Source: a virus
Taxonomy: Duplodnaviria; Heunggongvirae; Uroviricota; Caudoviricetes
Virus record (IMG/VR): IMGVR_UViG_2698536307_000010
DNA: 14,810 bases
Reading direction: 5' to 3' (one strand)
Part shown: piece after piece, positions 3,001 through 6,000 of the stretch
Layout of the letters: every line of letters begins with the position of its first letter
Position numbering within the stretch: position 1 is the stretch's first letter
Program-made: the position numbers

Positions 3001-6000
3001 CGTTCACATCAAGTCTGACTGGAGTTCTTACAATGTATATGATGGATACAGAAACGATTATGACAAGTAAAAATATAAGAAGAGATTTTGTTAGCGTTTG
3101 ATTTAACATATAAATTCCCTTGTCTGTGTTGAAAATGGGCATTATTATGCGTAAATCTTATGTAATCCTTAAGGATTGTCTGACGTGGTGATATGACGCG
3201 AAATACAGTGGGTACACAGAATGCTGTGAACAACGACGAAATGGGCATTGGTAGCGGTACTGGTGCTTTTTTTATTGGTTGGTTGCTCAAGTCTTGATAA
3301 AGCGCGTTAGCTTTTTGGTATTGCCTCTTAGGTCTGTAAAATTGCCGACGGTGTCCGGCAGTGCATGCAGGGCTGATCGTCTATGAGAACAGAATATATT
3401 GCTAAAAATGAAGTGTGCGTCAATGCTTATAAAGCATGCAATTCTGTATTTCTAACTATTCAATAAAATAAATTCTTTCTGTCGCAGTGAATATACAAAT
3501 GTTGATCAGCGCTCGATGTGGCGACGGGTTTCTATATCAGGAGACTTTGGCATTTATCCGCGAGGCAGCCTATCTGGTGCTGTAGTGGAATGAAGCGGAT
3601 ATAACCTAAATAAGGTTAAACATTAATCAGACATGGCTCTGCTGTGTGAAATCTGAAAATTTACAGCAGTCATTGTGCATCAGTTTTTAACAGAGAACGT
3701 CAGAAGGTGACATGGCAAAGCTGGACTGGAAAAAGCTGGAGCAGGCATTTCGACGCGAACATGTCAAAACCGGCATAAAGCTTCAGGACTGGTGCCGTCA
3801 GAACAATATCAGTTATGACACGGCTCGGCGGTACATTAAACTGCGCAAACACTCCCCCAGAAATACAGAGAAAAGTGCGCAGAAAAATGCGCAAATTGAT
3901 GATCAAAAAAGTGCGCAGAAATCTGACGGCAACTCCAGTCATGACGAGCCTTCAGGCGATGATGGTTGTGATGAAAAATGCGCAAATTTGGCAGAAACGA
4001 AACGGACTCGTGGTTCCAGACTTTTGCCACCTTCAAATGCTTTTTCTCAGCGTAACACCCACGCCGTCAGACACCGTGGATACGCGAAGTATCTCGAGGC
4101 AGATAACCTCATAGATGATGCAGTCGGAATGGAACTTGCCGATGAACTGGTGTTTACCCGGGCCCGCGCACTTTCAGTAACAGGAACACTGAAAAAAATG
4201 TTCGCCGACCTGAAAGAGGCGGCTGACGTGGAAACCCGCGTTGCTCTGTACGACAAAATACTCAAAGCTGAACAGGCTCTTGACCGGAATATTGCCCGTA
4301 TCGAGTCAATTGAACGCTCATTGCTGACGCTGGACGTTCTGGCTGAAACAGCACCAAAACTTCGTGCTGACCGGGAAAGAACCAACGCTGCCAGAGATAA
4401 ACTCAGAGCGGAAACCGATATTCTGACCAGCCAGCGTCGGGGCGTTGTTACGCCTGTCAGTGACATCGTGTCATCGCTGCATGAAATGAGTAATTCGGGG
4501 AGACTGGATGACATTCCGGAAGAATGAACCGCGATGTGATGAACCGTCAGAAATGACAGAGGCCGAACAACGTCTGTTCATCATGACTAAACTGAGCAAT
4601 CCCTGGTGGCGGCTCAATCATCTCTACAAGATACAGAACGAAAAAGGTGAGCTGGTCACCTTCAGAATGCGACCGGCGCAGCGCCAGTTGTTCCGGAGCA
4701 TGCACAATAAAAATATTATCCTGAAAGCACGCCAGCTGGGGTTTTCCACGGCCATTGATATTTATCTTCTCGACCAGGCATTATTCATACCGCATCTCAA
4801 ATGCGGGATTGTCGCTCAGGATAAACAGGCTGCCAGTGAAATTTTCCGCACCAAAATTGCTGTACCGTTTGATCATCTTCCTGACTGGCTGAGAGCCTCA
4901 TTCACCATCGTTGAACGTCGTAGCGGAGCCAGCGGTGGCTATATCCTGTTTGGGCACGGCTCGAGTATCCAGGTGGCAACCTCATTCCGTTCAGGTACGG
5001 TGCAGCGCCTGCATATCTCAGAGCACGGCAAAATTTGCGCAAAATATCCGGCTAAGGCGAAAGAGCTGCGAACCGGTACACTTAATGCCGTCTCTGATGA
5101 GTGCATTATTTTTGATGAGTCCACTGCTGAAGGTGTGGGTGGCGATTTTTACGAGATGAGTAACCGGGCACAGGAAATCACTGCATCAGGGCTGGCGCTG
5201 ACGCCACAGGATTATAAATTCCATTTTTACGCCTGGTGGCAGGATCTCAAATACAGCGCCAGAGTGCCGGAAAGCGGACTTAAGCTGTCACGGGAAAAAA
5301 CAGCGTATTTTTCTGCGGTTGAAAAAGCAATGAACATCACGCTTACCGATGAGCAGAAACACTGGTACATCTGCAAGGAAACTGAACAGCGTGAGGAAAT
5401 GAAGCAGGAGTTTCCCTCAACACCACAGGAGGCGTTTCTGACGTCCGGACGACGGGTGTTCAGTGCGGAAAGCACGCTGCAGGCAGAGTCATTCTGTTCG
5501 CCACCGCTGATTGTTTATGACATTGAACCGGTTACAGGAACGAAGACCAAAGCGCAGTCTCTGCGTGACGGGAATAAAGCCGAACAGCACCGGACGCTGA
5601 TGAATTATCTGCTGGTCTGGGAGCTACCGGATCCGGATGAAGAGTATGTATGCGGAGCGGATACCGCTGAGGGGCTGGAGCACGGAGACCGCTCATCGCT
5701 GGATATCATCAGATGTAGTAATGGTGAGCAGGTAGCCCACTGGTTTGGTCATCTCGATGCGGAGCTTTTCGCTCATCTCATTGCGCAGGTCTGCCGTATG
5801 TACAACAACGCGTTTGTGGGGCCGGAGCGTAACAATCACGGACATGCCGTTATCCTGAAACTCCGGGAACTCTATCCGACGCGTTATATCTACAACGAAC
5901 AGCACCTTGACCAGGCATATGACGACGATACGCCCCGTCTTGGCTGGCTGACAACCCGCCAGAGTAAACCGGTCCTGACTGAGGGAATGAAAACGCTGCT

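What the first reader, a model, noticed from the sequence alone, without database searches (positions are those of the whole stretch)
3143..3300. 14-bp perfect palindrome AATCCTTAAGGATT in the phosphatase promoter region
A perfect 14-bp inverted repeat (3164-3177) lies about 55 bp upstream of the preferred start of the minus-strand phosphatase gene, where an operator for a dimeric regulator would be expected. No adjacent regulator gene is visible, so any binding protein would be host- or phage-encoded elsewhere. It could tie expression of the moron to a host signal.
Basis: seen in the sequence. Interest (0 to 1): 0.4.

Follow-up and report, generated by a model that had tools for sequence, protein, structure and literature searches.

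The report
Host PmrA/BasR box before prophage phosphatase
The 14-bp palindrome is real, but its conserved part is a two-part docking site for the host's PmrA/BasR stress regulator, so this prophage-carried cell-surface (LPS) phosphatase gene is probably switched on by the host's iron/acid/polymyxin-resistance signal, as its chromosomal cousin is.

Summary
AATCCTTAAGGATT is at 3164-3177, 55 bp upstream of the ATG at 3109. As a palindrome it is not unusual: the window has three perfect 14-bp palindromes and shuffles average 1.0. The minus-strand gene (2528-3109) belongs to the Ais/PmrG family (LPS core heptose(II)-phosphate phosphatase). It sits as a moron between the Rz spanin and small terminase genes of a lambdoid prophage of E. 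coli O104:H4 and relatives.

Read in gene orientation, the palindrome overlaps CTTAAG-GATTA-CATAAG (3173-3157). This is a direct repeat of the PmrA/BasR box type. An AATAAT -10 hexamer follows 10 nt downstream, and there is no -35. K-12 arnB, eptA and pmrR show the same 10-nt layout.

Eight homologous prophage promoters (54-85% protein identity) keep both half-sites (0.92 and 0.83 identity) and the -10 (0.92). The palindrome's left arm is at background (0.44), and their palindromes are only 4-8 bp long. The 41-kb prophage holds no second copy.

Verdict: this is most likely a host BasR-activated promoter, and the palindrome is a by-product of the self-complementary CTTAAG half-site. It is a new member of a known kind. 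All evidence is computational.

The parts
3164..3177 (.). Perfect 14-bp palindrome AATCCTTAAGGATT (the finding). Its core CTTAAG is half-site 1 of the box. The left arm AATC (3174-3177 in gene orientation) is specific to this allele.
3157..3173 (-). Predicted PmrA/BasR box CTTAAG-GATTA-CATAAG. Half-site 1 is 3173-3168, the spacer 3167-3163, half-site 2 3162-3157.
   Evidence: Only site in the window scoring at least 10 of 11. Half-site identities across 8 homologous promoters are 0.92 and 0.83. Consensus taken from PMC3973317 and PMC10570014.
3141..3146 (-). Predicted -10 hexamer AATAAT, 10 nt downstream of the box. An overlapping alternative, CATAAT (3149-3144), lies 7 nt downstream. The hexamer at the -35 position (3169-3164, AGGATT) does not resemble TTGACA.
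   Evidence: Conserved at 0.92 identity, with 10-nt spacing in all box-bearing homologues. K-12 arnB, eptA and pmrR have the same spacing. No complete sigma-70 promoter is called here.
3134..3136 (-). Inferred transcription start, about 5-7 nt after the -10. It implies a 5' UTR of about 25-27 nt and puts the alternative ATG at 3142 upstream of the transcript.
   Evidence: Inference from promoter geometry; not measured.
3116..3121 (-). Shine-Dalgarno AAGGGA, 6 nt before ATG 3109.
2528..3109 (-). Ais/PmrG-family LPS core heptose(II)-phosphate phosphatase, 193 aa. It has an N-terminal hydrophobic segment and conserved RHGERCDR and THNHC motifs.
   Evidence: NF011945 scores 201.9 bits against a cut-off of 142. 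39% identity to K-12 Ais. RefSeq annotates the same 582-nt CDS.
3178..3192 (.). Upstream edge of the moron cassette. Homology to related prophages that lack the phosphatase gene begins at about 3185-3192.
   Evidence: Hits H21-H31 cover query 746/749/753-1106. Alignment A2.
3193..3297 (+). Decayed remnant (34 codons) of a 60-aa phage backbone gene (phrog_7528). It is not part of the promoter.

Best explanation
The palindrome overlaps a PmrA/BasR box, CTTAAG-N5-CATAAG (3173-3157, minus strand). This box takes the place of the -35 element of the promoter of a prophage-borne ais/pmrG paralogue.

Proposed mechanism (inferred). When the host sensor BasS/PmrB detects Fe3+, Al3+ or mild acid (or low Mg2+ acting through PhoPQ-PmrD), phosphorylated BasR binds the two half-sites head-to-tail. 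It recruits sigma-70 RNA polymerase to the AATAAT -10 hexamer 10 nt downstream. Transcription starts near 3135 and runs antisense to the phage late operon. The product is a periplasm-facing histidine phosphatase that removes the heptose(II) phosphate of the LPS core, in step with the host's own PmrA regulon.

The 14-bp dyad itself is a by-product. CTTAAG is self-complementary, and in this allele two flanking bases happen to extend the symmetry.

Shown here: the sequence, its rarity, its geometry, its conservation pattern, and the gene family. Inferred: BasR binding, the transcription start, the inducing signals, and the enzyme's substrate.
For: 1. The gene belongs to the Ais/PmrG family. Chromosomal ais/pmrG is a confirmed PmrAB regulon member (PMC1525208).
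2. The site fits the published box: half-site 1 CTTAAG, a 5-bp spacer, and a degenerate half-site 2. Half-site 2 of pbgP is CCTAAG, which deviates at the same position 2, and PmrA contacts the TAA bases (PMC3973317; PMC10570014).
3. It is the only site in the window scoring at least 10 of 11, against 0.16 expected per window and about 0.001 per 150-nt upstream region.
4. The same crude score, run on 131 kb of real E. coli DNA, picks out arnB/ais, eptA and pmrR as its top hits.
5. Geometry: a -10-like hexamer lies exactly 10 nt after the box here and in K-12 arnB (TAAAAT), eptA (GAGCAT) and pmrR (CATACT). No -35 is present and no complete sigma-70 promoter is called, as expected where the box replaces the -35 (PMC10570014).
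6. Phylogenetic footprint: the homologous promoters at 54-85% protein identity keep a box 47-53 nt before the ATG with a -10 at +10 (L064, L015-17, L066, L018, L069, L022, L071). One is a perfect repeat (L018, CTTAAG-GATTC-CTTAAG) and two read GTTAAG-ATTTT-CTTAAT (L022, L071). In the eight aligned in A4, identity to the window is 0.92 (half-site 1), 0.83 (half-site 2) and 0.92 (-10), against 0.44-0.56 in the flanks.
7. The box lies inside the moron cassette, within about 10 bp of its edge, as expected for a self-contained promoter-plus-gene unit.
8. The regulator gene basR is present in 5412 of 5426 complete E. coli genomes.
Against: There is no experimental evidence: no binding, transcription start or expression data for this locus. 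The box score and the choice of spacing were defined after I had seen the site. Half-site 2 (CATAAG) has a mismatch at position 2. The homologous promoters share ancestry, so conservation partly reflects descent, although the flanks have diverged to background. The published Klebsiella pbgP box spans -37 to -21, which implies 8 nt to the -10 rather than 10. One close allele (L065, 83%) has lost half-site 1, and homologues outside phages (L070, L072, L073) have no box, so control by the box is not universal in the family. The site scores equally on both strands because TTAA is self-complementary; orientation is inferred only from the -10 and from the homologues.
Confidence: 0.72

Rival explanations
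1. The match means nothing. The palindrome and the box-like repeat have no regulatory role, and the gene is transcribed constitutively from the AT-rich -10-like sequences or by read-through.
For: Perfect 14-bp palindromes are expected about once per window. The region is AT-rich (39% GC). The scoring was post hoc. Allele L065 lacks half-site 1 yet keeps an intact gene.
Against: A box match this good is expected about 0.001 times per 150-nt upstream region. Both half-sites and the -10 are conserved at 0.83-0.92 while the flanks sit at about 0.5. Position (47-53 nt before the ATG) and spacing (10 nt) are fixed across lineages. There is no -35 to support a strong constitutive promoter.
Confidence: 0.12
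2. The direct repeat is bound by another OmpR/PhoB-family response regulator with similar specificity, such as QseB, the close paralogue of PmrA (from my own knowledge). The architecture would be the same but the signal different.
For: The 11-bp-periodic direct repeat with a -10 close downstream is generic for this regulator family (PMC10570014 compares PhoB and PmrA promoters). Sequence alone cannot tell close paralogues apart.
Against: The half-site sequence xTTAAK matches the PmrA box in particular. The same scoring recovers the K-12 BasR targets. The gene's chromosomal homologue is a PmrA target (PMC1525208).
Confidence: 0.07
3. One reading: the 14-bp dyad is a symmetric operator for a dimeric regulator, phage- or host-encoded.
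For: The dyad is perfect and sits in a promoter region.
Against: The left arm is not conserved (0.44), and the dyads in homologues are only 4-8 bp. The 41-kb prophage has no further copy with up to 2 mismatches, and copies with 3 mismatches are not in excess (4 found, 1.8 expected). The prophage's own CI/Cro operators are lambda-type TATCACCGC sites, unrelated to this sequence. No regulator gene is adjacent.
Confidence: 0.05
4. The site is a CpxR box (GTAAA-N5-GTAAA; consensus from my own knowledge) on the plus strand, 3151-3166, or the sequence acts as an RNA/DNA hairpin such as a terminator.
For: GTAAATCTTATGTAAT is present at 3151-3166. The palindrome can form a 5-6 bp stem.
Against: The CpxR-like repeat has a 6-nt spacer, not 5, and is absent from L018, L069, L022 and L071. 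The hairpin is weak (-3.4 and -4.2 kcal/mol, z about -1), has no T-run on either strand, and lies upstream of the predicted transcript. The scan calls no terminator there.
Confidence: 0.03

Closest known systems
PmrA/BasR-dependent promoters of Enterobacteriaceae (pbgP/arnB, pmrC/eptA, pmrR, ugd), in which the pmra-box replaces the -35 element
   Same: Two xTTAAK hexamers in direct repeat with a 5-bp spacer. Half-site 1 is CTTAAG, as in K-12 arnB, eptA and pmrR. Half-site 2 is degenerate, as in pbgP (CCTAAG). There is no -35, a -10-like hexamer lies 10 nt downstream, and the downstream gene modifies LPS.
   Different: This one sits on a prophage moron cassette rather than on the chromosome. 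It has no sequence similarity to the chromosomal promoters beyond the box. Half-site 2 is CATAAG. Binding and activation have not been tested.
Chromosomal ais (E. coli) / pmrG (Salmonella)
   Same: Same protein family (NF011945 above its cut-off; 39% identity to K-12 Ais; catalytic RHG and HNH motifs conserved). The chromosomal gene is a PmrAB regulon member (PMC1525208).
   Different: The chromosomal gene shares a roughly 290-bp divergent intergenic region with arnB and has a single box 185-233 nt upstream of ais. The phage copy has a compact private promoter with the box 47 nt before the ATG. The phage protein falls below the PmrG equivalog cut-off (113 against 170 bits), so identical substrate specificity is not established.
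Lambdoid-prophage morons (bor, lom, and others)
   Same: A self-contained promoter-plus-gene unit of about 700 bp, AT-rich (39% GC against 52% for the window). It sits between the Rz spanin and small terminase genes, is transcribed against the late operon, and is absent from otherwise homologous phages.
   Different: The predicted promoter depends on an activator and is wired to one specific host two-component system, rather than being a simple constitutive promoter.

Membership tests
PmrA/BasR box (pmra-box) promoter | Two hexamers xTTAAK/CTTAAT in direct (head-to-tail) repeat, separated by 5 bp | tested here: met
   CTTAAG-GATTA-CATAAG at 3173-3157. There is one mismatch, at position 2 of half-site 2, the same position that deviates in pbgP CCTAAG.; PMC3973317, PMC10570014.
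PmrA/BasR box (pmra-box) promoter | The box overlaps or replaces the -35 element, with a -10 hexamer a fixed short distance downstream | tested here: met
   AATAAT lies 10 nt after the box, and the -35 position reads AGGATT. No complete sigma-70 promoter is called. K-12 arnB, eptA and pmrR have the same 10-nt spacing.
PmrA/BasR box (pmra-box) promoter | Both half-sites conserved in orthologous or homologous promoters | tested here: met
   Identity 0.92 and 0.83 against a background of about 0.5 in 8 homologues. One further allele, L065, has lost half-site 1.
PmrA/BasR box (pmra-box) promoter | Phosphorylated PmrA/BasR binds, and transcription depends on pmrA/basR | not testable with these tools
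   Needs EMSA or footprinting, reporter fusions, or RNA-seq in a basR deletion.
Symmetric operator of a dimeric repressor | Both arms of the dyad conserved in homologous promoters | tested here: not met
   Left arm at 0.44 identity. Homologues have only 4-8 bp dyads.
Symmetric operator of a dimeric repressor | Further operator copies, or a cognate regulator gene, in the same element | tested here: not met
   No other copy with up to 2 mismatches in the 41-kb prophage. The immunity operators are unrelated.
Ais/PmrG LPS core heptose(II)-phosphate phosphatase (the downstream gene) | Scores above the curated family cut-off and keeps the histidine-phosphatase catalytic motifs | tested here: met
   NF011945 subfamily: 201.9 bits against 142. 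RHGERCDR and THNHC are invariant in alignment A3. The PmrG equivalog model is not reached (113 against 170 bits), and the enzymatic activity is untested.
CpxR box | GTAAA-N5-GTAAA direct repeat (consensus from my own knowledge), conserved in homologues | tested here: not met
   The spacer is 6 nt, and the repeat is absent from L018, L069, L022 and L071.
Intrinsic terminator | Stable GC-rich hairpin followed by a T-run | tested here: not met
   -3.4 and -4.2 kcal/mol, z about -1, no T-run. Not called by the scan.

The most novel reading that the evidence does not exclude
Prophage-borne Ais paralogues are a recurrent class of moron at the lysis-terminase junction of lambdoid prophages, found next to at least three different lysis modules. 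On this reading they carry their own compact PmrA/BasR-dependent promoter, so that temperate phages have plugged an LPS-core-remodelling enzyme directly into the host's Fe3+/acid/antimicrobial-peptide alarm. The effect on the lysogen could be on metal or polymyxin tolerance, or on adsorption of competing phages that use the core as receptor. A narrower variant: in this O104:H4 allele the extended perfect dyad adds a second function, such as binding in both orientations or by a second, symmetric regulator.
Probability: 0.2. Interest if true: 0.55.

Novelty: new member of a known kind. Interest (0 to 1): 0.35.

Why it matters
If BasR does drive this promoter, a prophage of the O104:H4 outbreak lineage and its relatives adds an enzyme to the host's PmrAB envelope-remodelling regulon. 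That regulon underlies resistance to Fe3+/Al3+ and to polymyxin and host antimicrobial peptides. It would be a clean example of a phage moron using a host two-component system's binding site for conditional expression. It would also give a simple sequence rule for finding more such genes: box, 10 nt, -10, then about 50 nt to the ATG. In practice it tells experimenters which bases to mutate, namely the TAA cores of both half-sites and not the palindrome arms. Because chromosomal ais/pmrG is already a known PmrA target, a specialist would find the result plausible rather than surprising.

Tried and rejected
1. Palindrome as a statistical anomaly: rejected. Three are observed and 1.0 is expected per window.
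2. More copies of the palindrome in the prophage: none with up to 2 mismatches, and no excess with 3.
3. Phage CI/Cro operator: the immunity-region operators are lambda-type and unrelated.
4. Terminator or hairpin: weak, with no T-run.
5. CpxR box: wrong spacing and not conserved.
6. A second IMG/VR scan with a family alignment returned the same 22 loci as the first.
7. The genome-contig scan returned only chromosomal ais/pmrG loci. These were useful for comparison but gave no new phage copies.
8. PHROGs has no family for the phosphatase.
9. Literature searches found no paper in the held library describing a PmrA box upstream of a prophage ais-like gene. The O104:H4 prophage paper PMC3486847 lists ail/lom and bor as morons but not this gene. 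It also reports unexplained differences in polymyxin resistance between strains. This locus is 100% identical in the 2009 and 2011 strains, so it cannot by itself explain them.
10. The 204-aa ORF starting at ATG 3142: rejected. That ATG lies inside the predicted -10, homologues align to ATG 3109, and RefSeq uses 3109.

Full report
**Observation.** The sequence AATCCTTAAGGATT is at 3164-3177 and is a perfect 14-bp palindrome. It lies 55 bp upstream of ATG 3109 of a minus-strand ORF. That ATG has a Shine-Dalgarno sequence, AAGGGA, 6 nt upstream, and it is the start RefSeq uses for the identical gene in E. coli O104:H4 (582 nt, 193 aa). As a palindrome the feature is not statistically remarkable. 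The window contains three perfect 14-bp palindromes (1654, 3164, 6803), and dinucleotide-preserving shuffles give 1.03 on average.

**Context.**
- The ORF 2528-3109 (minus strand) belongs to the Ais/PmrG family of LPS core heptose(II)-phosphate phosphatases. It scores 201.9 bits on NF011945 against a cut-off of 142 and is 39% identical to K-12 Ais, with the RHGERCDR and THNHC motifs conserved.
- The window is a lambdoid prophage. It has a holin, a lysozyme and an Rz spanin upstream, and small and large terminase and portal genes downstream.
- The region is 99-100% identical in 43 of 5426 complete E. coli genomes, including O104:H4 strains from 2009 and 2011, and 99.5% identical in phage GER2.
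- Related prophages that lack the phosphatase gene align with the window only from about 3185-3192 onward (hits H21-H31; alignment A2). The gene and its roughly 70-bp upstream region therefore form a moron cassette, transcribed against the late operon, and the palindrome lies within about 10 bp of its upstream edge.

**What the palindrome overlaps.** In gene orientation the sequence reads ...GACAATC-CTTAAG-GATTA-CATAAG-ATTTACGCAT-AATAAT-GCCC....
- Published work defines the PmrA box as two hexamers in head-to-tail repeat separated by 5 bp. Half-site 1 is CTTAAG or CTTAAT, and half-site 2 is more degenerate (xTTAAT; CCTAAG in pbgP). PmrA contacts the TAA bases, and the box takes the place of the -35 element (PMC3973317; PMC10570014).
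- CTTAAG-N5-CATAAG (3173-3157) fits this. Its single deviation is at the same position that deviates in pbgP.
- A simple score was used: TTAA plus K in each half, with a bonus for a leading C. The site is the only one in the 14.8-kb window scoring at least 10 of 11. Shuffles give 0.16 such sites per window and about 0.001 per 150-nt upstream region.
- Run on 131 kb (both strands) of real E. coli DNA, the same score ranks the K-12 BasR targets arnB/ais, eptA and pmrR at the top.
- In those three promoters a -10-like hexamer (TAAAAT, GAGCAT, CATACT) lies exactly 10 nt after the box. In the window AATAAT (3146-3141) does too.
- There is no -35-like hexamer, and the generic sigma-70 scan calls no promoter for this gene. 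This is what is expected of an activator-dependent promoter.

**Comparative test of dyad against direct repeat.**
- Homologues of the phage protein were collected from IMG/VR. More came from a search of the large protein collection, and their contigs were retrieved.
- Most sit in the same place, between a lysis cassette and Nu1/terminase, next to at least three different lysis modules.
- The homologous prophage promoters at 54-85% protein identity all carry a box 47-53 nt before the ATG, with a -10-like hexamer exactly 10 nt downstream (L064, L015-17, L066, L018, L069, L022, L071).
- L018 has a perfect repeat (CTTAAG-GATTC-CTTAAG). L022 and L071 have GTTAAG-ATTTT-CTTAAT. L066 has a consensus TATAAT.
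- Eight of them were aligned with the window (A4). Their identity to the window base is 0.92 for half-site 1, 0.83 for half-site 2 and 0.92 for the -10. It is 0.65-0.68 in the spacers, 0.44 for the palindrome's left arm and 0.49-0.56 in the flanks.
- The longest perfect dyad centred on half-site 1 is 14 bp only in the window. In the homologues it is 4-8 bp.
- The conserved unit is therefore the tandem repeat plus the -10, not the dyad. The dyad arises because CTTAAG is self-complementary and this allele has AATC where its relatives have ACCC, CCCC or other sequences.

**Rivals.**
- Symmetric operator. This is contradicted by the unconserved left arm and by the absence of any other copy in the 41-kb prophage. 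The prophage's own operators are also lambda-type and unrelated.
- Hairpin or terminator. The stem is weak (-3.4 and -4.2 kcal/mol, z about -1) and has no T-run.
- CpxR box. The plus-strand repeat GTAAA-N6-GTAAT has the wrong spacing and is missing from four lineages.
- Pure chance remains possible but must also explain the positional and spacing conservation.
- A paralogous response regulator such as QseB cannot be excluded from sequence alone.

**Caveats.**
- Nothing here is experimental.
- The scoring scheme and the choice of the 10-nt spacing came after I had seen the site.
- The published Klebsiella pbgP numbering (box at -37 to -21) implies 8 nt rather than 10 to the -10.
- The homologous promoters are related by descent.
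- One close allele (L065, 83%) has a decayed half-site 1 (CCAAAAAG). Homologues in non-phage contexts (L070, L072, L073) have no box.
- Chromosomal ais/pmrG loci carry their single box 185-233 nt upstream, shared with arnB. The phage promoter is thus not a copy of the chromosomal one, only an analogue.

**Comparison with what is known, and novelty.**
- The element works like, and meets the sequence-level criteria of, a PmrA/BasR-dependent promoter. Membership by the functional criteria, BasR binding and basR-dependent transcription, could not be tested.
- Chromosomal ais/pmrG is a known PmrAB regulon member (PMC1525208), and basR is present in 5412 of 5426 E. coli genomes.
- I found no paper in the held library describing such a box on prophage ais-like morons.
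- I rate it a new member of a known kind and of modest interest. The idea that the palindrome is the operator is probably wrong.

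Noticed in passing
window 3193-3297 (+): A 34-codon ORF that is a decayed remnant of a conserved 60-aa phage backbone gene of unknown function (phrog_7528). The gene is intact in the E. coli SE11 prophage at L002:3006-3188. In L015-L017 a deletion of about 46 nt removes its 5' part and brings it next to the box.
   Followed up: partly
window 1653-1668 and 6803-6816: Two other perfect palindromes. AGCAGAATATTCTGCT (16 bp) starts at the last base of the lysozyme stop codon. CATTCCCGGGAATG (14 bp) lies inside the portal gene.
   Followed up: no
window 3602-3618: Inverted repeat TAACCT-AAATA-AGGTTA in the AT-rich intergenic region, about 95 nt upstream of the small terminase subunit gene (3712). 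It could be related to packaging or to a promoter.
   Followed up: no
L064, L065, L066, L069, L071; L068, L070, L072, L073: Ais-like genes recur between the lysis cassette and Nu1/terminase in prophages with at least three different lysis modules (lysozyme/Rz1, Glyco_hydro_108, M15 peptidase). Other family members sit in non-phage contexts (next to EAL, AraC or YfdX genes). L070, L072 and L073 have no box match; L068 has a box-like match only 21 nt before the ATG and no -10 at the usual spacing.
   Followed up: partly
L065:1413-1503: A close allele (83% protein identity) has half-site 1 decayed to CCAAAAAG, plus an extra base after half-site 2. This predicts loss of BasR control in that lineage.
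   Followed up: partly
L003 (phage GER2, MG710528.1 46130-46402): In the 99.5% identical phage GER2, the phosphatase is annotated only as a 273-nt CDS, which suggests a disrupted gene in that phage.
   Followed up: no
P0066: A homologue of this phosphatase family carries the source name 'transcriptional activator AfrS' (E. coli UMNF18). That is a regulator name on a histidine-phosphatase-family protein.
   Followed up: no
L001:5814-5830, L041:3056-3072, L041:6638-6654: In the K-12 sequence, the boxes upstream of arnB, pmrR and eptA are each followed by an xAxxxT hexamer exactly 10 nt downstream. The ais-arnB box reads as a box on both strands because TTAA is self-complementary. In the ais direction it is followed by TATTAG after 7 nt.
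   Followed up: partly
window 2452-2478 (+): A strong terminator-like hairpin, GCCAGC-TCAATC-GCTGGC followed by CTTTTTT, lies just after the Rz stop codon, between the lysis genes and the 3' end of the converging phosphatase gene.
   Followed up: no
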